From an uncultured Lentisphaerota bacterium (GTDB lineage Bacteria > Verrucomicrobiota > Kiritimatiellia > CAIQIC01): a DNA stretch of 64,000 nucleotides. A model generated the notes under the pieces. It was given only the letters and a program-made list of their open reading frames with translations. It made no database searches and had not been told where the DNA came from. Below, piece by piece: positions 2,722 to 44,661 of the stretch (the stretch's first letter is position 1; every line of letters begins with the position of its first letter). The stretch spans positions 15,612 to 79,611 of the forward strand of contig CAIWHP010000110.1 of assembly GCA_903912445.1 (NCBI GenBank), read 5' to 3'. The position numbers were made by a program, and so were the translations under genes.

Positions 2722-4362
2722 ATGAAAAAGATACTGTTCACCTGTCTGCTGCTCGCCAGTGCGGCTTTTGCCTACGAGCGCTTGCAAGGCCCGACCGAAC
2801 TGCTCTTCTGCGACAAGGCAAAGGCACTGCCCGGCTATGTGCTGTTCGGCGTCGGCAGCCGGACGTTCCTGCTCGACCTCGATGGCAAGGTGGTGCACAC
2901 GTGGCCCATCGGAACCAATCCGCACCTGCTCGATAACGGGAACGTTCTCGATGCGGGCAAGGACGACCCCAGCGGCTTCTCCGGTTTCAAGGAAGTGGAC
3001 TGGGACGGCAAGCAGGTTTGGGAATATACCGAGAAGCGCGAGGGCTATGCTCCGCATCATGATTGGGTGCGCATCTTCAACAAAAAGCTGAACGCGCCGA
3101 CCACGCTCTACATCGCCAATAAGTCTATCACCGATGCGCAAGCGCTCGCCGCCGGGGCCGACCCGAAGAATGGGCCGTATGACAACGGCCAGATGGACGC
3201 GATCGTCGAGGTGGATATGCAGGGCAATGTGATTTGGGAATGGTGCTTCTTCGATCACGTGGTTCAGGATGTGGATGCCAGCAAAGCAAACTATGTGGGC
3301 CAAGGCAAAACGGTGGCGGATTATCCAGGCCGTATCAACATCAACATGCCCGGCCGGCCGCTGAAGCGCGATTGGCTGCACTGCAACTCGATGGACTACA
3401 ACCCGGAATCCGGCCACGTTGTGATCAACTCCGTGCAGGGCGAACTCTATGTGATTGATCACGACGGGACGTTTGTCGCCGGCGATGCCAAGGCCGGCAT
3501 CGCCAAGGCCGCGGGACCGGCGGGCGATTTCCTGTACCGCTTCGGCGACCCGGCCCGCTACCAGCAGGGCGATCCGCCGAAAGTGATGGAGAACTGGGAT
3601 TCGGCCACCTCCGGCCATAAGCAGATGGGCGGCGCACACGATGTGCACTGGATTCACGCGGGCCTCCCCGGCGCGGGCCACCTGATGATCTTCAACAACG
3701 GGCAATATCTCTACCAGCGCACGCCGCAGTCCTCGGCGCTCGAAATCAATCCGTTCCTCGACGAGAGCGGACGCGACACCGGCAAGTATGTGAATCCGCC
3801 CGACGCCGGCTACCGGCGCGAGATCTATGACCACGACACGCACAACCAGCCGCGGCAGATCTCCAAGCAGATCGTCTGGAGCTATCGCTCCGTGAACAGC
3901 CACGGCTTCTTCAGCCACATCGGCTCCAGCGCGCAGAGGTTACCGAACGGCGGCGTCTTCATCTGCTCCGATACCGAGGGGCATTTCTTCGAGATCACCG
4001 CGAAGGGCGAACTGGCGTGGGAATACATCAACCCCGTCACGCGCGACGGCGCGGTCAAGACGCTCGGCGATGCGCTGCCGATGGTGAACTCCGCCTTCCG
4101 CGCCTATCGCATCGCCGCCGAGCATCCCGCGCTCAAGGGCCGTGACCTGACGCCGAAGGGCACGATCACCGAGCGCGCCGAGCAGGGGGTCGACACCTAC
4201 AAGCGCCGCCCACCGGAAGACCGCACAAAAGGCAAAGAGGGCAACGACGACCGCCGCGGCAAAGGCGGTAAAGGTGGTAAAGGAGGAGGTAAAGGTGGCG
4301 GACAAGGAGGTCAACGCGGTGGCGGCGATCGAGAAGACCGCCCGCCGCGCGATGGAAAGTGA
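2722..4362 (+). CDS. Secreted arylsulfotransferase-like (ASST family) protein, tandem paralog
   Basis: The internal ATG at 2722 gives a clean signal peptide (MKKILFTCLLLASAAFA). Same conserved blocks as 791..2539 (GYVLFG, HHDW, HCNSMDYN...VVINSVQGELYVIDH, LYRFGDP). Gly/Lys/Arg-rich tail ends in DRPPRDGK. Confidence 0.6.
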   Translation: MKKILFTCLLLASAAFAYERLQGPTELLFCDKAKALPGYVLFGVGSRTFLLDLDGKVVHTWPIGTNPHLLDNGNVLDAGKDDPSGFSGFKEVDWDGKQVWEYTEKREGYAPHHDWVRIFNKKLNAPTTLYIANKSITDAQALAAGADPKNGPYDNGQMDAIVEVDMQGNVIWEWCFFDHVVQDVDASKANYVGQGKTVADYPGRININMPGRPLKRDWLHCNSMDYNPESGHVVINSVQGELYVIDHDGTFVAGDAKAGIAKAAGPAGDFLYRFGDPARYQQGDPPKVMENWDSATSGHKQMGGAHDVHWIHAGLPGAGHLMIFNNGQYLYQRTPQSSALEINPFLDESGRDTGKYVNPPDAGYRREIYDHDTHNQPRQISKQIVWSYRSVNSHGFFSHIGSSAQRLPNGGVFICSDTEGHFFEITAKGELAWEYINPVTRDGAVKTLGDALPMVNSAFRAYRIAAEHPALKGRDLTPKGTITERAEQGVDTYKRRPPEDRTKGKEGNDDRRGKGGKGGKGGGKGGGQGGQRGGGDREDRPPRDGK

Positions 4363-7264: not shown

Positions 7265-8677
7265 ATGAAACGCTTGCTGCTGTTCGCCTTGTTCGTTGCC
7301 GCCATCGCGGGGCACGCCGCCACGCCGCAGCGCCCCAACTTCGTCTTCGTCCTCGGCGAGGGTCACGGCTGGAGCAGCACCGCGGTGCAGATGGATGACG
7401 CAACGCCAAATTCCAAGAGCACATTCGTTCGGACACCAAACCTTGAGAAGCTCGCGTTGGCCGGGATGCGCTTCGCCAACTTCTACGCGCCGTCGCCGCG
7501 CTGCACGCCGTCACGCGTCAGCCTGTTCACCGGCAAGAGCCCGGCGCAGCTCGGGATGACCTTCATCAACGAGGGCAAGAAGGACAGCGGCGCGAACCCG
7601 AATGGGCGTGTACTGACACCTTCGGCCTCGATGGAACTGGCGGCGAGCGAGACGACGATCGCGCAATTGCTCAAGCGCGCCGGCTATGCGACCGCGCACT
7701 TCGGCAAATGGCACTGCGGGCGGGCGAACCCGCGCGAGCACGGCTATGACGAGAACGACGGCGCGAACGGCAACGGCGGGCCGGACGATGCTGAGAACCC
7801 CCACCCAAAACAGCTGTTCCTCATGACCGAGCGCGGTATGGATTTCATGGCGCGACAGACCAAGGCCGGCAAACCCTTTTATCTCCAGCTCGATCACTAC
7901 GCCGCGCGCAACGGTGGCGACGCGCGCCCGGAAAGCATCGCGGCGGTGAAGAGCTGGGGCGGCCACCTGGACGAGCGCGACCTCGGCGCCGCCGCCGCGG
8001 ATTGGGATCTCGATGTCGCCTTCGGCATGGTGCTGAAGAAGCTCGACGAGCTTGGCATCGCGAACAACACGTTCGTCATCTTCACCACCGACCACGGCAC
8101 ACCCGGGAAAAATCCGCCGTTCGCTGGAGGCAAGGGCACGGTTTCCGAGGGCGGGCTGCGCGTCCCGTTCATCATCCGCGGGCCGGGCATCAAGCCGGGC
8201 GTCTGCTCACACGTGCGGATGGTCGGCGCGGACGTAGTGCCGACCATGGCCGAGTTGGCGCGCCTCACCGGGCCGCTGCCCCACGGCATCGAAGGCGGCA
8301 GCTTCGCGGGTGTGCTGGCGAACGCGGGCAGCGGCAGCGTGAAACGTCCGCGCGAAGAATTCGTCGTCCACTTCCCGCATTACGACAAGGACGAGAGCGG
8401 GCCGGCGTCGGCACTGTATCTCGGCGATCTCAAACTGATCCGCGTCTATGAAACCGGCGCGCTGCAGTTGTTCAACATCGCGAAGGACCCCGGCGAACGA
8501 CGCGACCTGGCCGCGGAGATGCCGGACAAAGTCAAAGAGCTGAACCAACGCCTGACGGACTACCTCGCCGCGGTGAAGGCCCAGATGCCGATATCCAACC
8601 CAAACTATGATCCCAGCAAGCCTCGCCCGGAGACGAAGCGCGAGGGCAAGGGACAAGGCAGGAAGAAAGTCCGATGA
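7265..8677 (+). CDS. Sulfatase (formylglycine-dependent)
   Basis: Signal peptide MKRLLLFALFVAAIAGHA. PNFVFVLGEGHG. CTPSR signature in PSPRCTPSRVSLFTGKSP. TTDHGTPG. Confidence 0.9.
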   Translation: MKRLLLFALFVAAIAGHAATPQRPNFVFVLGEGHGWSSTAVQMDDATPNSKSTFVRTPNLEKLALAGMRFANFYAPSPRCTPSRVSLFTGKSPAQLGMTFINEGKKDSGANPNGRVLTPSASMELAASETTIAQLLKRAGYATAHFGKWHCGRANPREHGYDENDGANGNGGPDDAENPHPKQLFLMTERGMDFMARQTKAGKPFYLQLDHYAARNGGDARPESIAAVKSWGGHLDERDLGAAAADWDLDVAFGMVLKKLDELGIANNTFVIFTTDHGTPGKNPPFAGGKGTVSEGGLRVPFIIRGPGIKPGVCSHVRMVGADVVPTMAELARLTGPLPHGIEGGSFAGVLANAGSGSVKRPREEFVVHFPHYDKDESGPASALYLGDLKLIRVYETGALQLFNIAKDPGERRDLAAEMPDKVKELNQRLTDYLAAVKAQMPISNPNYDPSKPRPETKREGKGQGRKKVR

Positions 8678-26449: not shown

Positions 26450-27181
26450 ATGAAACCACCGCCGCAGCTCGATGTGCTCTTTGAGGACGAGGTCCTCCTC
26501 GCCCTGAACAAGCCCGCGGGCCTGCTTAGCGCGCCCGATCCCAGGGAAAAAGATAGCGACAGCCTGTTACAGCGGATGCAGGCCCGGAACTATGCCGACT
26601 TCCACCAGATCCACCACCTCGACAGGGACACCAGCGGCATCGTGCTCTGCGCCAAGCAGCCCGACGCGTGGAAGCGGCTGTTCGGCTGGTTCGCCAGCCC
26701 CAAGATTGTCCGGCGCTACCTCTGCCTGACACGCGGGATTCCCGCGGAGACGGCGTTCACGCTGGAGCTCCCGCTCGCGCCCAACCCCCAGCGGCACGGC
26801 CGCATGATGGTGGCCAAGCACGGCCGCACCGCGCGCGCGGTGTTCCAGATCCTGGAGATCTTCCGGAATTACGCCTTGGTCGAGGCCCGCCCCGAAACCG
26901 GCCGCCACCACCAGATCCGCGTCCTGCTCGCCTCCAAGGGCACCCCGCTGGTCGCCGACCCCTTCTATGGCGACGGCAAGCCGCTGCTGCTCTCGACGCT
27001 CAAGCGCAACTTCAAGATGCCGAGCGAAGGCGAGCGGCCGCTGATCGCCCGCGCCGCGCTGCACGCCGCCTCGCTCGAATTCCCGCACCCCGTGACCGGG
27101 GAGCCGATGAAAATCGAGGCGCCCCTCTCCAAGGACTTCGCCATCTCGCTCAAGCACCTCCGCAAATACGTCGGCCGCTGA
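26450..27181 (+). CDS. RluA-family pseudouridine synthase
   Basis: LLALNKPAGLLS, HHLDRDTSGIVLCAK, GRHHQIRVLLA, PLVADPFYG. Divergent from the methyltransferase gene. Confidence 0.85.
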   Translation: MKPPPQLDVLFEDEVLLALNKPAGLLSAPDPREKDSDSLLQRMQARNYADFHQIHHLDRDTSGIVLCAKQPDAWKRLFGWFASPKIVRRYLCLTRGIPAETAFTLELPLAPNPQRHGRMMVAKHGRTARAVFQILEIFRNYALVEARPETGRHHQIRVLLASKGTPLVADPFYGDGKPLLLSTLKRNFKMPSEGERPLIARAALHAASLEFPHPVTGEPMKIEAPLSKDFAISLKHLRKYVGR

Positions 27182-27481
27182 AGTCAGAGAGCAGAGGTCA
27201 GTAGTCAGCGGTCAGAGGTCAGCCGGCGGAAGAACTCCGCAGCCTCGAACAAACACGCACCTGTTGGAATGTTTCCGCCCCACGGACGCGCGCGCTGCCC
27301 AGAAAAGGATTCGCGTGCCTGGCGGCCTTTGCGCAAACTTTCTCCGCCGCCTGCGCAGGCTCAATGGCCCGCATGGACTTCATGGACAGCCGGTCCGTCC
27401 AGCTTATCCATTTTGTCCCTCTGCCTGCTGGCCTTGCTCAACCCGCTGCTGAGGTCACTACGCGGCTTCGCTGTTCCGTTG

Positions 27482-27561
27482 TTCCAAACCCTTGGAAAAA
27501 ACGAGCTTTCCTTTTCCAAGGTCTGGAAAAGAGGTCAGCTTGGTTTGGCGGCGGCGAAGCC
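27482..27561. repeat. Left copy of an ~80-bp direct repeat (palindrome pair plus orphan copy of the channel-gene 3' end)
   Basis: Aligns with 30847-30925 at about 70 of 79 positions by manual alignment. Ends with gtcagcttggtttggcggcggcgaagcc, which reads GFAAAKPS* on the minus strand. Confidence 0.75.
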
Positions 27562-27585
27562 CTCGGCATCGTCGGCGCCGCGCAG

Positions 27586-27876
27586 GTGAGCCCCGATCTG
27601 AGCGCCATCCAGCCGCAGTTCGATGTCTCGGTGAGCGGCACCCAGGTGAACGTTAACTGGGGCTGGCAGGGCCAGGGCCAGTTCCTCGACATGTGCGAGC
27701 TGCAAGTGGACCGCGGCCAGGGCTTCGTCCTGCTCGCCTTCGACACCACGCCCGGCTACAACGACACCACGCCCTTCCCCACCGCGCCCGCCAAGTGGAC
27801 CTACCGCGCCATCTTCCACGTCGGCGACGGCCGCGTCGGCCAGTGGAGCAACCCCGTCAGCGTCATGGTGGGTTGA
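27586..27876 (+). CDS. Small FN3/Ig-like hypothetical protein (start uncertain)
   Basis: High-GC ORF ending ...KWTYRAIFHVGDGRVGQWSNPVSVMVG. A GTG at 27586 is the first plausible start after the repeat; the ATG at 27364 would read through the repeat. Confidence 0.35.
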   Translation: MSPDLSAIQPQFDVSVSGTQVNVNWGWQGQGQFLDMCELQVDRGQGFVLLAFDTTPGYNDTTPFPTAPAKWTYRAIFHVGDGRVGQWSNPVSVMVG

Positions 27877-27895
27877 GAAGATAGGCCGTGCAATG

Positions 27896-27927
27896 CTGCG
27901 CCGCATAGTGTGTACTATGCGGCGCAG
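27896..27927 (+). terminator. Perfect 14-bp stem / 4-nt loop hairpin at the GC-content break
   Basis: ctgcgccgcatagt-gtgt-actatgcggcgcag. No U-tract follows, so terminator function is uncertain. Confidence 0.35.
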
Positions 27928-27967
27928 TAACTAAAGGATGTCGCTTAACAATAAAAGGGAACACGCA

Positions 27968-28414
27968 ATGCCAAAAACCGTAATTTTCGTCGGATCATCA
28001 CAAGAAGCGAAAACTCAGACGAAGGCTCTGACCACCGCACTGACTTCACCAACAATAGAATTCCTCCCTTGGTGGGAATGCTTTACGGCGGGACATCTTC
28101 TGCTTGATGACCTAGAGGCGGTAAGAACGAAGGCAACAGCAGCAATGTTCATTCTCACGCCTGATATCCCCGCGACCATGCGAGGGGTTTCCGTGGCACT
28201 ACCGAATCAAAACGTATTGTTTGAGGTTGGTTATTTTTTCAATGCGTTTGATCGAGCGCGAATTGCACTCGTTAAATATGGTGCGACAACAATTCCAAAA
28301 GATCTCGATGGATACACTCACATAAAAGGCAGCGATTATTTCAAACCGAGAGTTTCGACGGTAGTGGGAAAAAAGACGCGAGAAGCGTTCGACAAATGGA
28401 TTGTAAGTCTATAA
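27968..28414 (+). CDS. Stand-alone TIR-like nucleotide-binding domain protein (Cap12 / Pycsar-effector TIR-like type)
   Basis: KTVIFVGSSQEA...AAMFILTPDIPA...LPNQNVLFEVGYFFNAFDRARIALVKYG..IPKDLDGYTHI matches the remembered consensus (VFIVHG..., LLTPDD..., RQNVIFELGYFIG.LGR.RV..L, IPSD..G). The ATG at 27968 has AAGGGA 8 nt upstream; an alternative ATG lies at 27938. Low-GC codon usage. Confidence 0.6.
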   Translation: MPKTVIFVGSSQEAKTQTKALTTALTSPTIEFLPWWECFTAGHLLLDDLEAVRTKATAAMFILTPDIPATMRGVSVALPNQNVLFEVGYFFNAFDRARIALVKYGATTIPKDLDGYTHIKGSDYFKPRVSTVVGKKTREAFDKWIVSL

Positions 28415-28516
28415 CGAATCGACTGGCGCAATGGCCCGACCATGCATCAAGCTGGCGGGCCATTTTTCTGCAATCAGATCTTCGAACTGGCGGAACCATG
28501 CGGCAGGTTTGCAAGG

Positions 28517-29215
28517 TCACTTCTTTTTATAATCAGCAACAATGCCCAATTCCTGGACACGTTGAGAAGCGAGCAGTTCGAGGCGGCGCGCCTGTGTGAG
28601 CAAGGTGCGTCGTAGGCCGCGCGAAACATGCCGTTCACTTATCACTCGTGCAAGGCTGGCAATAGTTGTCGCGCGTCGCGCAAGGCGTACATCGGGATGT
28701 TTGCGCTGGTGGTAAATGGCCTTTGGAATAATGTTTTGTTTATAAGACTGTGGCAGCTGAATTTCACTTTTCGGCAACATTTCTTTCTCGTTTAGCACCG
28801 CGCCCAACGTCGACTCCCTTAGGACCTTCTGAAAAGCTGTGTATTCTGCACTGTCCAACACTGCTTTCTTTTCGCTCTTGCCCAGCCCACGGACGAGCTC
28901 ATCAAGGGGCCAAACCTCGATGAATGCTACCTCAAACGGATCAAGGACGTTCATAGCCACGGCATCGGTGCGCTGATTTGTCAGATGACGGCTAATCCGC
29001 CCACTTAATTTTTCCTTTGTTTGCCCAACATAGATGGGCTCGCCATCGTAGTCATAGAAAGCGTACACGCCATGCTGGTAACTTCCGATGCGGTTGCCCA
29101 GCGCGTCCTTAGTTGAAAAAAACTTTCGTATCTCGCCACGGATTGCTGCGATATCTTCCGGTAACCCCACGACTTTAGATTGCGCGAACAGTTCTTTTTT
29201 CTTCGGTGTCGTCAT
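28517..29215 (-). CDS. GIY-YIG family nuclease, putative type II restriction endonuclease (Eco29kI-like class)
   Basis: GVYAFYDYDGEPIYVGQT...GRISRHL...FIEVW (GIY-YIG core with Arg and Glu). Its start lies 41 nt inside the 3' end of the methyltransferase gene. Low GC. Confidence 0.7.
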   Translation of the reverse strand: MTTPKKKELFAQSKVVGLPEDIAAIRGEIRKFFSTKDALGNRIGSYQHGVYAFYDYDGEPIYVGQTKEKLSGRISRHLTNQRTDAVAMNVLDPFEVAFIEVWPLDELVRGLGKSEKKAVLDSAEYTAFQKVLRESTLGAVLNEKEMLPKSEIQLPQSYKQNIIPKAIYHQRKHPDVRLARRATTIASLARVISERHVSRGLRRTLLTQARRLELLASQRVQELGIVADYKKK

Positions 29216-30329
29216 TCGTGTATAGCTCCTTCCAAACTGGGGTCAGATAATTTTCCGCAATCCAGCGTATTACAGGAACGCAGACCGCATCTCCAAAACC
29301 AAACAGAGCCTGGTTGATCGGGACAGTGATGCGAAAATCATCGGCACCCATCAGTCTCGCACACTCCCGGGGAGTGAGAAGCCGTACTGCATAGCGGCCT
29401 TTTCCGGCCGCAAAAAGTATCTGCCGCCCGCTCCCGCCACGTGGTGTTCGCAGACATCCGGCAATGCCATCGGTCCTTAACTCTGCCATGGAGCGAGAAT
29501 ATCGAACCCGGCGAAATACTGTGCCATATGTAATTTTTTTCCCGGAAATCATTTTGTCTGCGATTTTGCGGTGGCGCTCGCTCATTTGATTTAAAAGATA
29601 CTCTGCGCGCTCTTTGCTCCACCAAAACTCTGAACTCGAAGGAAGATCTTCGAGAATGCTACGCAGGTTAATATCTTTCTTCGCAATGCCCGGCAAATTG
29701 CGAATGGACCAGCGAATAAAGGGGTTTGAGAAAATAAAATCAGCTAGCGCAGGCGGGCGACACTGGCTCCCATAAAATGCTGAAGTTTCGCCGATTTTAT
29801 TGGCCTCAGTCTTTTCCTGTTTTCCAATCAGAAAGAGACGCTGCCGACTCTGCGGCACAAACAGACCGGCATTAATAATGAAGGCATCCACCGCGTATCC
29901 AAGATCATTAAGAGCCAAACACGCATCCCGGAAGTCTTGGCCCCCATGAGAGCTCAAAAAGCCTGTAACATTTTCGAGCATGATGAGAGGCGGTTTCTTT
30001 GACCGCATTGACTTCATCGCCTTGATAAAACCCCAAAACGCACCAGAATTTTCGCCCACAAGTCCGCGCCGAGCACCAGCAAGTGATAGGTCATTGCAGG
30101 GAAACGATGCGGTCGCGAGAGCAACAGTTGGAATATCGCTAGATGTGAGCGCGTGTACGTCGCCCAAATGAAAATGAGCAGATTCGGAGCCGAAGTGCCC
30201 TTCGTACATCTTCATTTTCGACTCTTCGATGTCATTCGCCCAGACAACATTCCATCCGGCTTGCTCCAATCCCATTCGCATTAGGCCGATGCCTGCGAAA
30301 AACTCAGCCACTGTTCGCTCATTATTCAT
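29175..30329 (-). CDS. dcm: DNA (cytosine-5)-methyltransferase
   Basis: Motif I EFFAGIGL, motif IV SFPCNDLSLAG, motif VI ENV, motif VIII QSRQRLFLIG, LTPRECARLMG, motif X GDAVCVPV. Confidence 0.95.
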   Translation of the reverse strand: MNNERTVAEFFAGIGLMRMGLEQAGWNVVWANDIEESKMKMYEGHFGSESAHFHLGDVHALTSSDIPTVALATASFPCNDLSLAGARRGLVGENSGAFWGFIKAMKSMRSKKPPLIMLENVTGFLSSHGGQDFRDACLALNDLGYAVDAFIINAGLFVPQSRQRLFLIGKQEKTEANKIGETSAFYGSQCRPPALADFIFSNPFIRWSIRNLPGIAKKDINLRSILEDLPSSSEFWWSKERAEYLLNQMSERHRKIADKMISGKKITYGTVFRRVRYSRSMAELRTDGIAGCLRTPRGGSGRQILFAAGKGRYAVRLLTPRECARLMGADDFRITVPINQALFGFGDAVCVPVIRWIAENYLTPVWKELYTNDDTEEKRTVRAI

Positions 30330-30729
30330 GACTTTTCAGCGCTTTCTCAATGCGAGCAACCATCGAATTTTTGCGAACCGCATCTTCCCAAATCCTGATG
30401 ACATTCCAACCCTTTTCTCTAAGCATGCGTGAGACCAATTTGTCCCGAGCCACATTACGCGCGATCTTTCGCACCCAATAACGGCGGTTGGTGTGTGGCA
30501 TGCGACACTTTCGCGGATGGCCATGCCAGAAGATGCCATCGACAAAAATGGCCAGCCGTGCGGCAGGAAAAACGAAATCTGGTTTCCCGAAGAGCGGGTA
30601 GTTTCTGCGCCAGCCTGTCAGCCTTCTTTCACGGAAGACCCGCATCAGCCGCTGCTCCGTCGAGGCGTTTCCTTGCGATTTGATCCGCGCCATGATCCTC
30701 GACCGCTCTTTTGGGCTGCAAGTGTCCAT
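30322..30729 (-). CDS. vsr: Very short patch repair (T:G mismatch) endonuclease
   Basis: RSRIMARIKSQGNASTEQRL...GWRRNYPLFGKPDFVFPAARLAIFVDGIFWHGHP. 8-nt overlap with dcm. Confidence 0.9.
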   Translation of the reverse strand: MDTCSPKERSRIMARIKSQGNASTEQRLMRVFRERRLTGWRRNYPLFGKPDFVFPAARLAIFVDGIFWHGHPRKCRMPHTNRRYWVRKIARNVARDKLVSRMLREKGWNVIRIWEDAVRKNSMVARIEKALKSHE

Positions 30730-30846
30730 GAGGATATTTTAAGTCTTTTGGACCTTTTGACCAGCGGGGAAGCAGTGTCTCCTGCTTCATTCTTCACGAC
30801 AAGAATTGCAAGGAAAGGCTCACCGTGTGCTGTCGCCCGCGTGGAT

Positions 30847-30925
30847 TTCCAAGCCCTGGAAAAAACGGCCTTTTCTTTTCCAAGGTCTGGAAAACCCGTC
30901 AGCTTGATTTGGCGGCGGCGAAGCC
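30847..30925. repeat. Right copy of the ~80-bp direct repeat (overlaps the true 3' end of the channel gene)
   Basis: See 27482-27561. Contains GFAAAKSS* and the stop of the gene 30899..32494. Confidence 0.75.
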
Positions 30926-32494
30926 GAGGAGGCGCTTGAAGCGCTGGAGCAGGGTGTCGTGCTTGAGGGCGTTGGCCGAGGCGCCGTTCATGGCCTTGAG
31001 GCGGTCGTAGTTCTGCGCGTTCTGGGCGGCGCGGTCGGCGACGAGGCAGGCGAGCTTCTCCGGGATCTCCGGGCGCAGGCCGAGCAGGCGGGTGAAGGCT
31101 TCCGGCGAGATCTCCAGCAGTTCGGCCTCTTCCGGCACGGTCAGCGTCGCGGCGCGCGGCAGGCCGGTGACGAGGCTCAGCTCGCCGCAGAGCGCGCCGG
31201 TGGGCAGGTCGAACTCGGTCGGCGGCGTCGCGTCCTGGAACTCCACGCGTCCGTGGAGGCGGCCGCGGACGATCACGTAGCAGCTTTCGCCGGCGTCGCC
31301 CTGCCGGAAGACCGTTTCGCCGGCGGTGTAGCGGACGAAGCGCAGCAGGGGCGCGAGCTGCGTCAGGTCGCCCTCGGCCAGCAGCGGCTGGCCGGCGGCA
31401 TCCACAAACAGGTGGGCGACGAACGTGCTGCGCTGCAGTTCGCGGACGCGGCGCGCGGCTTCCGCGGGCGGCGTGGGCTGATGCTGCTGCCCGTTGACGA
31501 CGTGCATGAAATCGCACAGCAGCTTGTCGCTCATCGGGAACGGGATCTCGATGCCGTGGCGCTTGAACTGGTACCAGATGTGGCGGTTGACCTCGCCGCT
31601 GATGGGCGCACGGTTCTGATAGGCGTCGACCCAGATGCGCAGCTCATAGCCGATGCCGAAATCCTTGTAGGCGCACGGGAAGGCCCTGGGCGGAGGGTCG
31701 CGCAGGACGGCCGGCACGGCGGACGCCGCCGCGAGCAGGGCGGCGCTGACGTCGGCGGGCGCGGAGTCATAGCTGGCGTCCACAAAGAGCGAGTGGCGGC
31801 GGACGCTGTCCGGCCAGCTCATGTTGTGGATCGCGGCGGCGGCGATCATGCTGTTGGGCACGATGAGCGTGTGGCCGGCGGTGCTGCGCAGGTGCGTCTC
31901 GCGCCAGTTGGTCTGGAGGATCTCGCCCTCGGCTTCGCCCAGGCTGATCCATTCGCCGGGCCGCAGCGAGCGAGTGATGTGGATGGACATGCCGGCGAGC
32001 AGGTTGCCGAGCACGCCCTGCAGCGCGAAGCCGATGATCGCGGTGACCAGCGCGGTCGAGGTGAGCAACGGGGAGATGTTCACGCCCAAGTAGCGCAGGA
32101 CAACGAGCACGGCGGCGCCGAGCAGCAGGCCGCGGACGAGGTTGCGCAGCAGGCCCGGCAGCGGGAACGCGCGGCCGCGCAGCCGGAAGATCGCCGCGAG
32201 CAGCCCCTCGCAGAACGCGAGCACGGTGACGACCGCCCAGACGGCGAGCCAGATCTTGAGCAGCTGGTCGTTGCCGAGCGCGGAGAGCTGCGGGAGCTTG
32301 TCGGCGATCAAGCGGAGCACGCCGGCGAGCGCGAGCACGACCAGCGGCGTGGCCAGCGGCTCGAGCAGCGCGCCCAGCGGCGAGGCCATTTTCGCCGCGC
32401 GGCGGCGCAGGGGCAGGCCGACGAGCCAGCCGACGACGAGGAGGCCGGCGAGCGCGCCGATCTCGATGATGTGTTCGGTGATGCCCTTATCCAT
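30899..32494 (-). CDS. MscS-family mechanosensitive channel fused to a cyclic-nucleotide-binding domain
   Basis: TM helices, then the MscS beta domain (GNLLAGMSIHITRSLRPGEWISLG...GEILQTNWRETHLRS...LIVPNS). C-terminal cNMP-binding domain (GETVFRQGDAGESCYVIVRGRL...GELSLVTGLPRAATLTV). Internal ATG at 32494 (MDKGITEHIIEIG). Confidence 0.85.
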   Translation of the reverse strand: MDKGITEHIIEIGALAGLLVVGWLVGLPLRRRAAKMASPLGALLEPLATPLVVLALAGVLRLIADKLPQLSALGNDQLLKIWLAVWAVVTVLAFCEGLLAAIFRLRGRAFPLPGLLRNLVRGLLLGAAVLVVLRYLGVNISPLLTSTALVTAIIGFALQGVLGNLLAGMSIHITRSLRPGEWISLGEAEGEILQTNWRETHLRSTAGHTLIVPNSMIAAAAIHNMSWPDSVRRHSLFVDASYDSAPADVSAALLAAASAVPAVLRDPPPRAFPCAYKDFGIGYELRIWVDAYQNRAPISGEVNRHIWYQFKRHGIEIPFPMSDKLLCDFMHVVNGQQHQPTPPAEAARRVRELQRSTFVAHLFVDAAGQPLLAEGDLTQLAPLLRFVRYTAGETVFRQGDAGESCYVIVRGRLHGRVEFQDATPPTEFDLPTGALCGELSLVTGLPRAATLTVPEEAELLEISPEAFTRLLGLRPEIPEKLACLVADRAAQNAQNYDRLKAMNGASANALKHDTLLQRFKRLLGFAAAKSS

Positions 32495-33335
32495 TGAGTG
32501 TGACCTCCATGCCTGCCTGCGCCAGCGCCGCCCCGGACCACAGCCGCCGCGCGGCCCGCGCCACCTCGTCGAGCTGCGCATCGGGGCTCTGCGGCGCGTG
32601 GTGGGTGACCAGCAGCTCGCGCACGCCGGCCTGTTGCGCCACCTCGACATCGTCTTCCCACGCCGAGTGGCCCCAGCCTTTGAACTTGGCAATATTCGCG
32701 CGGCAAAACTGGCCATCCATTACGAGCAACTGTGCGGGCCGCGGCTGCGAGCAAAGCGCAAGGAAGTCGCGCTTCTCGGCCTCGGTGGAGCCGCGCCACT
32801 CCAGGTCCGTCGCGAAGACCACCGCCGCGCCGGTCGCCGGCTCGTCCACGCGATAGGCGTGGCAGCCTTCCGGGTGCTGCACCGCGCACCAGCGGATTTC
32901 CAGACCGTGGTGGCGGCGCACGGCGCCGGCGGCCGCGGGCAGCGTGGTGAGCTTCAGCCGCGCATGCAACTGGTCGAGCTGGATGGGCCAGAACGGCTTC
33001 GCGAGGATGCTACGCACGACCTCGCGCGGCTCGAAGGCCGCGCGGCGCGGCGCGGCGATCTCGACCGTCCAGGCTTTGTTGTAGAGCAAGGCAAACGACG
33101 GCAGGCCCATGATGTGGTCGAGGTGATAGTGCGTCATCAGGAGCAGCACCTCGGCCCCGGCCGCGCCCGCGGCCAGCCGCCCGCCGAGCGCGCGCAGGCC
33201 GGTGCCGGCATCGATGACGAGTTGCTCGCCGCCGCGGCCCTCGATCAGCACGGAAGTCGTCTCCCCGCCGTATTTCAGGAAGTCCGCCTGCGCGACCGGG
33301 CTCGTCCCGCGCACCCCGCCAAAGATGAATTTCAT
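32487..33335 (-). CDS. MBL-fold metallo-hydrolase (possible cyclic-nucleotide phosphodiesterase)
   Basis: LLLMTHYHLDHIMGL (HxHxDH). Overlaps the channel gene by 8 nt and lies 1 nt after the cyclase gene. Confidence 0.8.
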   Translation of the reverse strand: MKFIFGGVRGTSPVAQADFLKYGGETTSVLIEGRGGEQLVIDAGTGLRALGGRLAAGAAGAEVLLLMTHYHLDHIMGLPSFALLYNKAWTVEIAAPRRAAFEPREVVRSILAKPFWPIQLDQLHARLKLTTLPAAAGAVRRHHGLEIRWCAVQHPEGCHAYRVDEPATGAAVVFATDLEWRGSTEAEKRDFLALCSQPRPAQLLVMDGQFCRANIAKFKGWGHSAWEDDVEVAQQAGVRELLVTHHAPQSPDAQLDEVARAARRLWSGAALAQAGMEVTLNG

Positions 33336-33336
33336 C

Positions 33337-35454
33337 TCATTTCTCCGTCAAACTCCAAACGCCGTCCCAGGCGGCGGGCGGCGCGGCCTGCAACGCGCGG
33401 CACTGGGCGGCGTAGGCCCGGGAGGCCGGATCGTCCGGCAGCCGCTCGAACGCGGCCAGCGCCGCGGCGAAGTCGCCTGTGTAAAACTGCGCCAGCGCCT
33501 GCTCGAAGGCGGCGAAGTGCGCGGGGCGCGCCTCGCCGGCCAGACCGGCGAGCTCATAGACGCGCACCGGCGCCTTGCGCCCGACAACGCGCAGCCGGCC
33601 CAGCTCGCGGCCGATGAAGCTCCCGCCGCCCTGCTGCCAGGTGGTCTCGGAGACCATCAGGTAGGTGCCGAACGCCTTGTTCGCACCCTCGAGCCGCGAG
33701 GCGAGGTTCGCCGCGTCGCCGAGGATCGTGTAGTTGAAGCGCTCGCGCGAGCCCATGTTGCCGACGATGACCGCGCCGGTGTTGAGGCCGATGCGCGCCT
33801 TGACCACCGCGCCGGTGCGCTGCTCGAACTCCGGGCGCAGCTCCGCCAGCCGGCGCTGGCAGCGCAGCGCGGCGCGGCAGGCGCGCGCGGCGTGGTCGTC
33901 CTGCCCGAGCGGCGCATTCCAGAACGCGACGATCGCGTCGCCGATGTATTTGTCGAGGTAGCCGCCCTCCGCCTGGATGCACGCGCCCATCTCCGAGAGG
34001 TAGGCGTTGAGCAAGGCGGTCAGCGTCGGCGGATCGAGCCGCTCGGAGAAGCCGGAAAATTTCTCGATGTCGGAGAAGAAAATCGACAGTTCCCGCTTCT
34101 CGCCGCCGAGCTGGAGCTTGCCGGGGTCGGCGATGATCTGCTCGATGACCTCCGGGCCGAGGTAGTATTTGAACGCCGACTTGATGAACGCCTTCTGCCG
34201 GCCTTCCGTGGCGTAGTTGACGACGACCGCGCCGATGAGGGTCAGCGCCACGGCGACCACGCCCGGAGCGACCGGCCACCACCAGCCCGCCAGGTAGCCG
34301 GCGAACCCGAGCCCGATGGCGAGCGCGAGGAACACCACGAACCCCAGCACGGTCTGCCACGAGTTGCGGCTGAAACGCCCCGCGAAGCCGGCACCCAGCG
34401 CGAGCAGCAGGGTGGCGAGGACCGTGGCGACATCCGGCAATTCCCGCAGGAATGTCCGCGACAACAGGTTGTCGAGCGCCGTCGCGTGGACCAAGACGCC
34501 GGGATAGACCTTGCTCATGGGCGTCGGCCGCAGGTCGAGCAAGCCCGGCGCGCTGAAGCCGAAGAGGGCGTAGCAGTCCTTGAGCGCGGCCGGTTCGATG
34601 GTCGGTTTTTTGCCTTCGCGCAGCAACAACTCGGAACGGATGATCTCCCGGACGTTGAAGGTCTGATGCGTGCCCGGCGTGCCGACAAAGCGCAGGATGG
34701 CGCGGCCGCGCTTATCGATCGGGAAACGCTGACCGTCGATGGTCAGCCAGCCCGGCGCAAGGGCGAGCCGGGCCTGCGGTTGGCCGGCCAGATAGGCGGC
34801 CAGGCCGAGCGAGGGCACGACATGGCCCGCGAACTCGCGCACAAGTGTCGCATGCCGATAAACACCGTCGAAAGAGGGCACGCCGTTGACATCGGCCAGC
34901 AGGGTCGCGTTGGTGGCGACGGCGGCGATGGGAAAGCTGGCGCGCGGCGCGCTTTTCAAGGCCTTGGAAAAACGGAGGGCATCCTGGTCCACGGTTTGAA
35001 AAGCCGGCAGCTTGAGCGGTACGGCAGCAGGCCAGTTGGTATACTCACCCTGCTCCTCGCCAAGGAAGGCGGCGCCGACAAAGGGCGCGCCGCGCCGGAT
35101 GGCGTCGCCCAGCGCCTGGTCATCGTTCACGCCCCAGCCGCTCGGCTCCGTAAAGAGCACATCGAACGCGACCGCCTTCGCGCCGGCGCGCTTGCAGAAG
35201 TCGAGCACGACACCATACGCCTCGCGCGGCCAAGGCCAGGTCCAGCTGTTCTCGTTCTTGCCCCAGTCCAAGCTGGGTTGATCGAGCAGGATCACCTTGA
35301 TCTGCCCGGTGGCAGGCGAGGGTTTGGCGAGGGCTCGGACGCGTGCCAGCCAGGCGGAATTTTCCAGCCAGTGCAACTGGCCACCCAACGACAGCGCCAG
35401 CGCGACAAGCGCGCCGCCGAGGCCGAGCAACACAGCATGGAGGAGCTTTTTCAA
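33337..35454 (-). CDS. CHASE2-sensor class III adenylate/guanylate cyclase
   Basis: N-terminal signal/TM plus an extracytoplasmic CHASE2-like region and 3-4 TM helices. Cyclase core: LSIFFSDIEKFSGFSE...YLDKYIGDAIVAFWNAP...RIGLNTGAVIVGNMGS..RFNYTILGDAANLASRLEG. Confidence 0.9.
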   Translation of the reverse strand: MKKLLHAVLLGLGGALVALALSLGGQLHWLENSAWLARVRALAKPSPATGQIKVILLDQPSLDWGKNENSWTWPWPREAYGVVLDFCKRAGAKAVAFDVLFTEPSGWGVNDDQALGDAIRRGAPFVGAAFLGEEQGEYTNWPAAVPLKLPAFQTVDQDALRFSKALKSAPRASFPIAAVATNATLLADVNGVPSFDGVYRHATLVREFAGHVVPSLGLAAYLAGQPQARLALAPGWLTIDGQRFPIDKRGRAILRFVGTPGTHQTFNVREIIRSELLLREGKKPTIEPAALKDCYALFGFSAPGLLDLRPTPMSKVYPGVLVHATALDNLLSRTFLRELPDVATVLATLLLALGAGFAGRFSRNSWQTVLGFVVFLALAIGLGFAGYLAGWWWPVAPGVVAVALTLIGAVVVNYATEGRQKAFIKSAFKYYLGPEVIEQIIADPGKLQLGGEKRELSIFFSDIEKFSGFSERLDPPTLTALLNAYLSEMGACIQAEGGYLDKYIGDAIVAFWNAPLGQDDHAARACRAALRCQRRLAELRPEFEQRTGAVVKARIGLNTGAVIVGNMGSRERFNYTILGDAANLASRLEGANKAFGTYLMVSETTWQQGGGSFIGRELGRLRVVGRKAPVRVYELAGLAGEARPAHFAAFEQALAQFYTGDFAAALAAFERLPDDPASRAYAAQCRALQAAPPAAWDGVWSLTEK

Positions 35455-44586: not shown

Positions 44587-44661
44587 GCGGGAGTAATTCA
44601 GTGGTAGAATGTCAGCTTCCCAAGCTGAACGTCGTGGGTTCGACTCCCATCTCCCGCTCCA
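44587..44661 (+). tRNA. tRNA-Gly (anticodon CCC), CCA encoded
   Basis: Acceptor stem GCGGGAG/CTCCCGC. D-arm AGTGGTAGA. Anticodon stem TCAGC/GCTGA with loop TTCCCAA. T-arm GGGTTCGACTCCC. 3' TCCA. Confidence 0.95.

What the first reader, a model, noticed from the sequence alone, without database searches (positions are those of the whole stretch)
27482..30925. Low-GC 3.4-kb insertion bracketed by ~80-bp direct repeats that duplicate the 3' end of the MscS/cNMP channel gene
Segments 27482-27561 and 30847-30925 align at about 70 of 79 positions (manual alignment). Both contain a palindrome pair followed by GTCAGCTTG.TTTGGCGGCGGCGAAGCC.

The right copy holds the last eight codons plus stop of the channel gene (GFAAAKSS*, minus strand). 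The left copy is an orphan duplicate (GFAAAKPS*) with no gene attached. Homology stops exactly after GAAGCC on both sides.

Between the repeats lie a small high-GC ORF, a perfect 14-bp hairpin at the composition break (27896-27927), and about 2.8 kb of visibly AT-richer DNA with four defence-type genes. No integrase or transposase is present.

This is the signature of site-specific insertion into the 3' end of a gene with att-like duplication. With no recombinase, it is either mobilised in trans or fossilised. The shared central GGTCT in the second palindrome distinguishes these two copies from all other palindrome loci in the window.
Basis: partly seen in the sequence, partly recalled or inferred. 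Interest (0 to 1): 0.75.

Follow-up and report, generated by a model that had tools for sequence, protein, structure and literature searches.

The report
Restriction-modification islet with duplicated target
A 3.3-kb piece of foreign DNA carrying a restriction-modification operon and a TIR gene sits just after an ion-channel gene, flanked by two copies of that gene's last few codons; it looks like the already described recombinase-free "insertion with long target duplication" of restriction-modification genes, so it is a tidy example of a known kind, not a new type of mobile element.

Summary
27482-27561 and 30846-30925 are a direct repeat (69/80 gapless). The right copy carries the last 8 codons and stop of the MscS/cNMP channel gene. 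The left copy is an orphan.

About 30 nt of each copy is the first palindrome (plus spacer) of a generic dispersed palindrome doublet (REP-like, 8 loci in the window). Only the last 52 nt (48/52 identical) are specific to this pair.

Between the repeats lie a 5'-truncated, host-like gene fragment, a strong hairpin, and 2.9 kb of compositionally foreign DNA (GC 0.50 against 0.64). The foreign DNA holds a standalone TIR gene and a vsr / C5-methyltransferase / GIY-YIG nuclease operon. That operon is about 80% identical in protein across many phyla.

The nearest available relatives (83-84% channel identity) keep the same synteny. They have only 259-666 bp between the pseudouridine synthase gene and the channel gene.

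No recombinase lies in the insert or within 12 kb. The left repeat meets the truncated gene inside a 9-nt overlap (GGCGAAGCC). That points to illegitimate or homology-driven recombination, not an evolved att site.

Best fit: restriction-modification "insertion with long target duplication" (Nobusato 2000; Furuta 2010). Verdict: new member of a known kind, modest interest.

The parts
26471..27181 (+). Left flanking host gene: RluA-type pseudouridine synthase.
   Evidence: PF00849, E 1.5e-27. 89% nt identity to L009, and syntenic with the P0196 contig. GC3 0.92.
27182..27481 (.). Non-coding spacer U between RluA and the left repeat. It takes the place of the RluA-to-small-membrane-gene spacer of relatives.
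   Evidence: Only its first ~55 nt are alignable to L009/L005 (92% over 26 nt). No family X N-terminus is encoded here.
27482..27561 (+). Left direct repeat (DR-L). It consists of a REP-like palindrome doublet (27482-27530) plus an orphan copy of the channel gene's stop codon and last 8 codons (27534-27561; reads GFAAAKPS* on the minus strand).
   Evidence: The KPS* ending matches the real channel C-terminus of relative L004/L017 (GFAAQKPS*).
27553..27876 (+). X': 5'-truncated fragment of a small conserved hypothetical gene family of Verrucomicrobiota, with host-like codon usage. Its first 9 nt overlap DR-L.
   Evidence: 74 homologues of 57-174 aa, most of those annotated being from Chthoniobacterales or Verrucomicrobiota MAGs. 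The family HMM aligns positions 43-151 of 152, starting at nt 27553. The N-terminal 42 positions are found nowhere in the window. GC3 0.943.
27894..27929 (+). GC-rich hairpin at the composition break, just after the X' stop codon. It has no T-tract. It probably belongs to the X' fragment as a terminator-like element.
   Evidence: -31.7 kcal/mol, z -5.3, 0 of 200 shuffles as stable. Not reported by the terminator scan because it lacks a T-run.
27968..28414 (+). Standalone TIR-domain gene (CAP12/Pycsar-type TIR), low GC.
   Evidence: PF10137, E 1.4e-18. PADLOC TIR effector models, E 1e-16. The 147-aa module covers the whole protein, and homologues exist both standalone (150-195 aa) and fused. 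GC3 0.42.
28517..29215 (-). GIY-YIG nuclease, the putative restriction endonuclease of the cassette.
   Evidence: PF01541, E 2e-7. It overlaps the methyltransferase gene by 41 nt, and the same pairing is seen in L010-L014. The AlphaFold model matches only the UvrC GIY-YIG domain, weakly. The restriction role is inferred, not shown.
29175..30329 (-). C5 cytosine DNA methyltransferase.
   Evidence: PF00145, E 3.5e-50. PADLOC MTase_II, E 3e-119. TIGR00675 dcm.
30322..30729 (-). Vsr very-short-patch repair endonuclease, first gene of the vsr-M-R operon.
   Evidence: PF03852. TIGR00632, 102.9 bits, above the cutoff. An intact vsr occupies the same position in L013.
30736..30763 (-). Sigma-70-like promoter candidate for the vsr-M-R operon, inside the AT-rich right end of the insert.
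   Evidence: TGGTCA-16-TAAAAT, 9 of 12. A consensus match only.
30829..30844 (-). GC-rich 16-nt scrap between the AT-rich islet and DR-R. It matches an X-family gene in antisense. Unexplained; possibly junction filler.
   Evidence: 16/16 match to the L023 X gene, E 0.004. No 16-mer match in 2076 host segments or 20000 shuffles. Relaxed matches to this GC-rich motif are common, so the weight is low.
30846..30925 (+). Right direct repeat (DR-R): REP-like doublet plus the functional 3' end of the channel gene (GFAAAKSS*).
   Evidence: Relatives L002, L019 and L020 also have such palindromes downstream of the channel gene.
30899..32494 (-). Right flanking host gene: MscS-type mechanosensitive channel with a C-terminal cNMP-binding domain. 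It remains intact.
   Evidence: PF00924, PF21082 and PF00027. Orthologues of 528-534 aa at 77-84% identity.

Best explanation
This is a horizontally acquired defence islet. It holds a widely travelling three-gene type II restriction-modification operon (vsr, C5 methyltransferase, GIY-YIG nuclease, with its own promoter) and a standalone TIR gene. It dragged along a 324-nt fragment of a verrucomicrobial-type gene (X') with its hairpin.

The islet entered the chromosome at the 3' end of the MscS/cNMP channel gene without any dedicated recombinase. The joining duplicated the target, meaning the last 27 nt of the channel gene plus the adjacent REP-like palindrome(s). One copy stays attached to the gene and keeps it intact. 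The other copy is left as an orphan on the far side of the insert.

The left junction formed inside a 9-nt microhomology (GGCGAAGCC) between the channel gene's end and gene X. Two routes give this product.
(a) Insertion of a linear fragment by illegitimate or microhomology-mediated joining at staggered positions on two sister copies of the target. This is the 'insertion with long target duplication' described for restriction-modification genes.
(b) A circle that already carried the R|X' junction, then integrated by homologous (Campbell-type) recombination within the ~50-80-nt homology. Such a circle could form by microhomology recombination in a donor where the islet already lay next to the channel gene.

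Shown: the repeat and its specific part; the foreign composition; the gene content; absence of the islet at the orthologous locus of relatives; absence of recombinase genes; the truncation of X' and the 9-nt overlap.

Inferred: the order of events; the enzymes involved (host recombination/repair, possibly stimulated by restriction breaks); the restriction activity of the GIY-YIG protein.

Once in place, the direct repeats allow RecA-mediated loss or amplification of the islet.
For: - The repeat is real and pair-specific over 52 nt (48/52). Its coding tail is unique in the window.
- The tail is native channel sequence. Relative L004/L017 ends ...GGCTTCGCCGCGCAGAAACCAAGCTGA (GFAAQKPS*) with no palindromes after it.
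- The islet is foreign: GC 0.50 against 0.639 +/- 0.035, GC3 0.42-0.60 against 0.88-0.95, tetranucleotide z 3.7.
- The site is empty in relatives with conserved synteny (cyclase, MBL, channel | 71-aa gene | RluA | TRAM methyltransferase). Only 259 bp (P0196 contig; L017) or 666 bp (L009) separate the channel and RluA genes.
- No integrase, transposase or Y1 transposase was found in the insert or among the ORFs scanned within about 12 kb. No tRNA or Rfam RNA lies at the ends.
- X' starts at HMM position 43 of 152, at nt 27553, so it overlaps the repeat's last 9 nt. The homologue in L023 encodes the same spot as GGCGAAGCG.
- The vsr-M-R unit is a self-contained, highly mobile cassette. Of 7146 detected homologues, the 120 best are 74-84% identical in protein and come from many phyla. 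At ~68% nt identity its borders fall exactly at the vsr start and the nuclease stop. It is found bare in L013 and as cargo of an integrase island in L010.
- Furuta et al. 2010 define this class as follows: R and M genes in the insert, insert under 20 kb, repeat over 30 bp, no mobility genes. They note that the repeats often span a start or stop codon, leaving the target gene intact (PMC2853133).
Against: - No conspecific genome with an empty site was found. The nearest relatives are only 83-84% identical in the channel protein.
- Those relatives carry a small membrane-protein gene at the site that the window lacks. They also lack the palindrome doublet in the exact form. The event was therefore not a clean insertion, and the single-copy target cannot be shown directly.
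- The two repeat copies differ at 4 of 52 specific positions and about 11 of 80 overall. That is more than in the published cases (44/46 to 47/47). Either the event is old or the copies were never identical.
- The first ~30 nt of the repeat (the first palindrome and spacer of a multi-copy element) are not pair-specific.
- A second, antisense X-like 16-mer at the right junction is not explained by the simple model.
- The restriction activity of the GIY-YIG protein is not established: there is no PDB sequence match, and only a weak fold match to UvrC.
- Only 64 kb of the genome could be searched for further copies of the repeat.
Confidence: 0.55

Rival explanations
1. Site-specific integration. 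The insert is a small integrative element, or the decayed stump of a larger island. Its attP copied the channel gene's 3' end, and it was integrated by a tyrosine or serine recombinase encoded elsewhere or since deleted. DR-L and DR-R are then attL and attR.
For: The repeats sit at the 3' end of a gene and restore it, the classic geometry of integrase islands. The same vsr-M-R cassette is cargo of an integrase island flanked by a 74-nt tRNA-derived repeat in L010. The sharp inner border of homology after GAAGCC is compatible with the edge of an attP.
Against: No recombinase lies in the 3.3-kb insert or among the ORFs scanned within about 12 kb. The supposed attP would abut a truncated host-type gene, with a 9-nt overlap typical of an accidental junction. 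Part of the 'att' is a generic REP doublet. No other locus fetched carries the 52-nt sequence.
Confidence: 0.18
2. Two-step, in-situ history. The low-GC islet was inserted between pre-existing sequences. DR-L arose separately, for example by a local duplication, by gene conversion, or by a tandem duplication between the GGCGAAGCC microhomologies followed by a REP-to-REP deletion. That deletion would also have removed the small membrane-protein gene and the 5' part of X. On this view the repeats do not mark the ends of one insertion event.
For: The tail and second palindrome are much better conserved (48/52) than the first palindrome and spacer. That fits a hybrid REP doublet produced by REP-to-REP recombination. 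The small membrane gene is missing. REP arrays and different neighbouring genes downstream of the channel gene in L001, L002, L019 and L020 show that this spot is a rearrangement hot-spot. X' has perfectly host-like codon usage. Furuta et al. list 'chance insertions between repeated sequences' as a separate class.
Against: It needs more events than a single insertion with target duplication. No 5' part of X or second copy of the islet is left in the window. The difference in divergence between the parts of the repeat rests on few positions.
Confidence: 0.17
3. REP/RAYT-type mobilisation. The two palindrome doublets in direct orientation act as hairpin ends that a REP-associated Y1 transposase encoded elsewhere recognises. 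The segment between them then moves as a single-stranded 'peel and paste' unit.
For: The doublets fold as single hairpins. They are a dispersed family with a fixed ~32-nt spacing. They flank the insert in the same orientation.
Against: No Y1 transposase was found among the window ORFs scanned. The duplicated coding tail and the truncated X' lie inside the supposed element and are not explained. IS200/IS605-type transposition makes no target duplication (established knowledge of that family). Other REP doublets in the window flank nothing foreign (composition).
Confidence: 0.05
4. Assembly artefact. A low-GC contig from another organism was stitched into this contig at shared repeats.
For: The source appears to be a metagenome-type contig of 83 kb. 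In other metagenomes the islet is seen only on ~1-kb contigs.
Against: The two repeat copies are diverged, with the longest shared exact run about 20 nt, so a graph collapse would neither join there nor create two different copies. The junctions carry unique sequence on both sides.
Confidence: 0.03

Closest known systems
Insertion of restriction-modification genes with long target duplication (Nobusato et al. 2000, Gene 259:99; Furuta, Abe & Kobayashi 2010, NAR 38:2428, PMC2853133)
   Same: R and M genes lie in a short insert (3.3 kb) with no mobility gene. The insert is flanked by direct repeats longer than 30 bp that copy the target. The repeat spans the stop codon of the target gene and so leaves it intact. 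The insert is foreign in composition, and the site is empty in related genomes.
   Different: The repeats are less alike (48/52 in the specific part, 69/80 overall) than the published cases (44/46 to 47/47). The first ~30 nt of the repeat belong to a multi-copy REP-like element. The insert also carries a truncated host-type gene fragment joined at a 9-nt microhomology, and a TIR gene. The empty-site genomes are from other species, not the same species. The lineage is a PVC-group bacterium (relatives are labelled Lentisphaerae, Kiritimatiellaeota or Verrucomicrobia), which does not appear among the taxa named in the passages of that survey I read.
Integrase-type genomic islands / integrative elements with att duplication at the 3' end of a gene (tRNA-type islands)
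   Same: The direct repeats duplicate a gene's 3' end and restore the gene. The cargo is defence genes. The same cassette is cargo of such an island in L010.
   Different: There is no recombinase gene. The inner edge of the repeat is an accidental-looking junction with a truncated gene. The target is a protein-coding gene plus a REP doublet, not a tRNA.
Eco29kI-type type II R-M systems (GIY-YIG endonuclease plus C5 methyltransferase) and dcm-vsr modules (own knowledge of the families; not tested beyond domain level)
   Same: A GIY-YIG nuclease gene overlaps a C5 methyltransferase gene. A Vsr gene in the same operon would repair T:G mismatches arising from 5mC deamination.
   Different: The nuclease has no detectable sequence match to any solved structure, Eco29kI and Hpy188I included. 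Its fold matches only the UvrC GIY-YIG core, weakly. Its specificity is unknown.
REP / REPIN elements (repetitive extragenic palindromes in doublets)
   Same: The palindromes are short, dispersed and intergenic. They occur in doublets of fixed spacing that fold into one hairpin, and they are shared with related genomes.
   Different: Here they are only part of the duplicated target. No RAYT gene is seen in the window. Their sequence (TTTCCAAGGCCTTGGAAA) is lineage-specific.

Membership tests
[quoted passage not shown] 2010) | The insert contains both an R and an M gene homologue. | tested here: met
   The C5 methyltransferase is unambiguous. The R gene is a GIY-YIG nuclease overlapping it, and the pairing is conserved in L010-L014. 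Its restriction function is inferred.
[quoted passage not shown] 2010) | The inserted sequence is shorter than 20 kb. | tested here: met
   3284 nt lie between the repeats (27562-30845).
[quoted passage not shown] 2010) | The flanking direct repeat is longer than 30 bp. | tested here: met
   80 nt at 86% identity. The pair-specific part is 52 nt at 92%.
[quoted passage not shown] 2010) | No mobility-related genes lie in or next to the insert. | tested here: met
   Pfam scans of all insert genes and of the flanking ORFs scanned within about 12 kb found no integrase, transposase or resolvase.
[quoted passage not shown] 2010) | Both repeats align with one single-copy sequence at an empty site in a related genome. 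| tested here: inconclusive
   Syntenic relatives lack the insert. L004/L017 carry the 27-nt coding tail once. However, they are other species (83-84% aa identity), lack the palindrome doublet, and have an extra small gene. No conspecific genome was found.
[quoted passage not shown] 2010) | The repeat is not a multi-copy element of the genome. | tested here: inconclusive
   The tail and the GGTCT palindrome occur only at the two copies within the 64-kb window. The first palindrome and spacer belong to a REP-like family. The rest of the genome is not available.
Integrase-mediated genomic island | A site-specific recombinase gene lies within or at the edge of the element. | tested here: not met
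   None lies in 27482-30925 or among the flanking ORFs scanned.
Integrase-mediated genomic island | attL and attR direct repeats lie exactly at the borders of the foreign DNA. | tested here: inconclusive
   The repeats are present. However, 324 nt of host-like gene fragment plus a hairpin lie between DR-L and the low-GC DNA.
Integrase-mediated genomic island | Excision to a circle, or the same element at the same att site in other genomes. | not testable with these tools
   No reads are available. No other fetched locus has the repeat. The identical pieces found in two other metagenomes are only ~1 kb long.
Type II R-M operon with Vsr | A C5 methyltransferase, a cognate endonuclease and a Vsr gene are co-oriented and overlapping. 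| tested here: met
   vsr and M overlap by 8 nt; M and the nuclease overlap by 41 nt. The same three-gene unit occurs in L013.
CBASS Cap12 / Pycsar TIR effector | A TIR domain is fused to a nucleotide-sensor domain and sits next to a cyclase. | tested here: not met
   Only the TIR module is present (148 aa). The NCBIfam Cap12 score of 29.5 bits is far below the cutoff of 450. There is no CD-NTase or PycC in the insert. Standalone homologues exist.
REP/REPIN elements | Short palindromes, dispersed and intergenic, in doublets able to form one hairpin; a RAYT gene in the genome. | tested here: inconclusive
   The palindrome family, the fixed spacing and the hairpin are shown. No RAYT gene was seen among the window ORFs scanned, and the rest of the genome is unavailable.

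The most novel reading that the evidence does not exclude
The islet may be a recombinase-free, homology-guided mini-element. It would carry its own copy of a 'handle': the channel gene's last codons plus a REP hairpin. It would loop out as a circle through the direct repeats. It would then re-enter any related genome at the same gene end, by host RecA or by a REP-associated transposase acting on the hairpins. REP-type repeats next to conserved gene ends would then serve as landing pads for defence cassettes in this lineage. The X-family scraps at both junctions would be scars of earlier cycles.
Probability: 0.08. Interest if true: 0.6.

Novelty: new member of a known kind. Interest (0 to 1): 0.3.

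Why it matters
It adds a well-resolved case, from a poorly studied PVC-group freshwater lineage, to the small catalogue of restriction-modification units that enter genomes with a long target duplication and without any recombinase.

The junction detail is the useful part. A truncated bystander gene is fused to the duplicated target inside a 9-nt microhomology. This gives a concrete hint that microhomology-mediated joining, or a circle followed by homologous recombination, underlies a mechanism that is still experimentally unproven.

It also shows that a cassette about 80% identical in protein across phyla can move either bare or as cargo of integrase islands. For annotation, the practical lesson is that direct repeats at a gene's 3' end around a defence islet do not by themselves imply an att site.

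Tried and rejected
- **5' part of gene X upstream of DR-L.** A MAFFT alignment suggested the 5' part of X might survive upstream of DR-L, which would place the repeat inside an intact gene. An N-terminal HMM found nothing there or anywhere else in the window. Smith-Waterman scores were matched by 130 of 300 shuffles. Rejected.
- **Exact-protein look-ups.** Look-ups for the methyltransferase, RluA and X' found no record. The nuclease was found only on two ~1-kb contigs. No conspecific empty or filled site could be obtained.
- **Closer relatives.** The protein search confirmed that nothing closer exists in the database.
- **Long flanking repeats at other cassette copies.** None in L013 or L014. 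L010 has a tRNA-type repeat plus an integrase.
- **Nuclease identity.** No PDB sequence match. Foldseek gave only a weak match to the UvrC GIY-YIG domain. An Eco29kI-type assignment could not be confirmed.
- **RNA genes at the borders.** No Rfam family and no tRNA.
- **Hairpin as an integron attC site.** The order of the GTT and AAC boxes is wrong on both strands (read directly). Rejected.
- **Small membrane gene of relatives.** It is not anywhere in the window.
- **Context of X homologues (L022, L023).** It gave no hint of mobility.
- **Viral contigs.** They hold only 46-55% identical full-length relatives of the nuclease.

Full report
**1. Observation**

The region was read directly.
- The repeat finder reports 27482-27561 and 30846-30925 as the only 80-nt direct pair in the 64-kb window, 86% identical without gaps.
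- In the alignment, identity starts at the first palindrome and stops exactly after GAAGCC in both copies.
- The 28-nt tail GTCAGCTTGGTTTGGCGGCGGCGAAGCC, with up to 3 mismatches, occurs only at these two places (0.00 expected).
- The right copy overlaps the end of ORF 30899-32716(-), which ends LLGFAAAKSS*. The left copy reads GFAAAKPS* on the minus strand with nothing upstream.
- The palindrome TTTTCCAAGGNCTGGAAAA is a dispersed family (13 matches against 0.02 expected). The GGTCT-centred form is confined to the two copies.

The palindromes occur as doublets of about 32-nt spacing at eight loci in the window. Across the doublet, the two copies are 80% alike, against 61-79% for unrelated doublets. 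The pair-specific repeat is the second palindrome plus the tail: 27510-27561 vs 30874-30925, 48 of 52 identical.

**2. What lies between the repeats**

Pfam, PADLOC and NCBIfam identify four genes:
- a TIR-domain protein (27968-28414, +);
- a GIY-YIG nuclease (28517-29215, -);
- a C5 cytosine methyltransferase (29175-30329, -);
- Vsr (30322-30729, -).

The last three overlap one another and form an operon, with a promoter-like site just upstream. This DNA is foreign by composition. GC is 0.50 against a window mean of 0.639 (sd 0.035). GC3 is 0.42-0.60 against 0.88-0.95 in flanking genes. These are the three most deviant tetranucleotide windows.

The "small high-GC ORF" is not a small gene.
- Its 74 homologues, of 57-174 aa, are hypothetical proteins, most of the annotated ones from Chthoniobacterales or Verrucomicrobiota MAGs.
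- A family HMM aligns only positions 43-151 of 152, beginning at nt 27553.
- The conserved N-terminal part (RFRALVKQIK...YN..IG) is not encoded upstream of the repeat or anywhere else in the window.
- Its GC3 (0.943) equals that of the channel gene.

It is followed by a very stable hairpin (-31.7 kcal/mol, z -5.3), after which the composition drops. The insert is thus a 324-nt fragment of a host-type gene (X') with its hairpin, followed by 2.9 kb of truly foreign DNA.

**3. The junction**

Homology to the channel gene's end runs to 27561. Homology to family X starts at 27553 by HMM and at 27552 by blastn to the L022 homologue. The shared 9 nt, GGCGAAGCC, encode G-E-A. G and A are conserved in the family, and the L023 homologue has GGCGAAGCG at the same place. 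A junction lying inside a short overlap between two unrelated sequences is what microhomology-mediated, illegitimate recombination produces. It is not what an evolved attachment site looks like.

At the other junction, a 16-nt GC-rich scrap (30829-30844) matches an X-family gene perfectly in antisense (E 0.004). No such 16-mer occurs in 2076 host segments or 20000 shuffles. However, relaxed matches to this GC-rich motif are common. I leave it as unexplained.

**4. Comparison with relatives**

No conspecific genome is available. The closest channel proteins are 83-84% identical.
- The P0196 contig has the window's gene order: CHASE2 cyclase, MBL-fold protein, channel, then RluA and a TRAM methyltransferase. 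Only a 71-aa membrane-protein gene lies between the channel and RluA, 259 bp in all (sequence from L017 and L004).
- L009/L005 has the same arrangement with 666 bp between the two genes. RluA is 89% and the channel 85-87% identical in DNA.
- None of these has the R-M genes, the TIR gene or X.
- L004/L017 end the channel gene with GGCTTCGCCGCGCAGAAACCAAGCTGA (GFAAQKPS*) and have no palindromes. The repeat's tail is therefore native channel sequence, and the orphan copy keeps the KPS ending.
- Other relatives (L002, L019, L020) carry arrays of the same palindromes downstream of the stop codon and different neighbours. L001 also has a different neighbour. This spot is a rearrangement hot-spot.
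- The small membrane gene is nowhere in the window, so the event was not a perfectly clean insertion.

**5. The cassette elsewhere**

- The nuclease has 7146 detectable homologues. The 120 best are 74-84% identical and come from Nitrospirae, Desulfobacteraceae, Kiritimatiellaeota, Sumerlaeota, Elusimicrobia and others.
- In L010-L014 it always overlaps the methyltransferase gene.
- DNA similarity (~68%) to L013 ends exactly at the vsr start and the nuclease stop, and L013 has an intact vsr. The travelling unit is therefore vsr-M-R. The TIR gene is not part of it.
- In L010 the unit is cargo of an integrase island with a tRNA-derived 74-nt repeat. In L013 and L014 it has no flanking repeats.
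- Relatives of 47-53% identity sit on plasmids next to dcm. Relatives of 46-55% identity are found in viral contigs.
- Two other metagenomes hold pieces 100% identical to 28346-29484.
- The TIR module is complete, and homologues occur both standalone and fused.
- The nuclease has no PDB sequence match. Its model (pLDDT 71) matches only the UvrC GIY-YIG domain, weakly. Its role as the restriction enzyme is therefore an inference from context.

**6. Mechanism**

No recombinase gene lies in the insert or among the ORFs scanned within about 12 kb. No tRNA or known RNA lies at the borders.

The anatomy matches the class defined by Kobayashi's group. That class has R and M genes in an insert under 20 kb, flanked by a target duplication over 30 bp, with no mobility genes. 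The repeat often spans a start or stop codon, so the target gene survives (PMC2853133). Those authors suggest that double-strand breakage is involved, and that such repeats allow amplification. They state that release and reinfection are unproven.

For this locus I propose one of two routes:
- a linear fragment joined at staggered points of two target copies; or
- a circle carrying the R|X' microhomology junction that integrated by homologous recombination within the 50-80-nt homology.

Both give the observed product and I cannot separate them. Confidence in this recombinase-free reading is about 0.55.

**7. Rivals**

- A trans-acting or lost integrase (0.18) is compatible with the geometry. 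It has no positive evidence and does not explain the junction.
- A multi-step in-situ history (0.17) would have the orphan copy arise separately, for instance by tandem duplication at the microhomology followed by a REP-to-REP deletion. It would explain the missing membrane gene and the poorer conservation of the first palindrome, but it needs more events.
- Mobilisation by a REP-associated transposase (0.05) and assembly artefact (0.03) are unlikely, for the reasons given under each rival.

**8. Verdict**

The locus is a new member of a known kind: R-M insertion with long target duplication. It has two instructive details, a microhomology junction with a truncated bystander gene and a REP-like doublet as part of the duplicated target.

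Interest is modest (0.3). The main limits are the lack of conspecific genomes, of the rest of this genome, and of reads.

Noticed in passing
window 2656, 4500, 11495, 19209, 27482, 30847, 34954, 42022 (doublet starts); also L002 11590-11710, L019 about 2920-3040, L020 about 7730-7790: A lineage-specific REP/REPIN-like family. It consists of two 16-19-nt palindromes (consensus TTTCCAAGGCCTTGGAAA) about 32 nt apart that fold together into one hairpin. They are intergenic, occur about once per 8 kb, and are shared with related genomes. No RAYT gene was seen in the window.
   Followed up: partly
window 30829-30844: A GC-rich 16-mer between the AT-rich islet and the right repeat is a perfect antisense match to an X-family gene (L023). 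Both junctions of the insert therefore carry X-family sequence, in opposite orientations. It may be junction filler or chance.
   Followed up: partly
window 27464-27471 and 27554-27561: The left repeat is itself bracketed by an 8-nt inverted repeat, GGCTTCGC / GCGAAGCC. Its significance was not evaluated.
   Followed up: no
window 27531-27533 vs 30895-30897: Three consecutive mismatches (GAG vs CCC) lie exactly between the second palindrome and the channel stop codon, inside an otherwise 48/52 identical stretch. This may mark an internal recombination or conversion boundary.
   Followed up: no
window 27364-27876: An ORF stays open from an ATG in the spacer, through the whole left repeat, in frame into X' (170 aa). 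The truncated fragment could therefore still be translated as a fusion. The database gene call starts at GTG 27588 (96 aa).
   Followed up: partly
window 30899-35454 (minus strand); L017, L020, L021: A conserved host operon: CHASE2-sensor adenylate/guanylate cyclase, an MBL-fold protein (faint Anti-Pycsar Apyc1 Pfam hits in relatives), and an MscS channel with a cNMP-binding domain. It appears to be a cyclic-nucleotide signalling module. By coincidence it sits next to a Pycsar/CBASS-type TIR gene.
   Followed up: partly
L004 2945-3160, L009 249-479, L017 5384-5599: A conserved 71-75-aa membrane-protein gene lies between RluA and the channel gene in relatives. It is absent from the whole window, so it was lost or replaced in this lineage.
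   Followed up: yes
window 27182-27222; L009 about 714-766: A 21-nt tandem pair (AGTCAG...GGTCAG, two copies) lies immediately after the RluA stop codon. It is partly conserved in the relative L009.
   Followed up: no
L010 291-7900: In a Kiritimatiellaeota MAG the same vsr-M-R cassette is cargo of an island with a tyrosine integrase, bounded by a 74-nt repeat containing tRNA-like sequence. The cassette therefore uses several vehicles.
   Followed up: partly
L015, L016 (ENA ERZ18650074, ERZ27313463) = window 28346-29484: Two other metagenome assemblies contain ~1-kb contigs 100% identical to the methyltransferase-nuclease-TIR junction of the islet. The same islet, and probably the same organism, occurs in other samples.
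   Followed up: partly
window 44587-44661: The only tRNA gene in the window, tRNA-Gly(CCC). It is unrelated to the islet.
   Followed up: no
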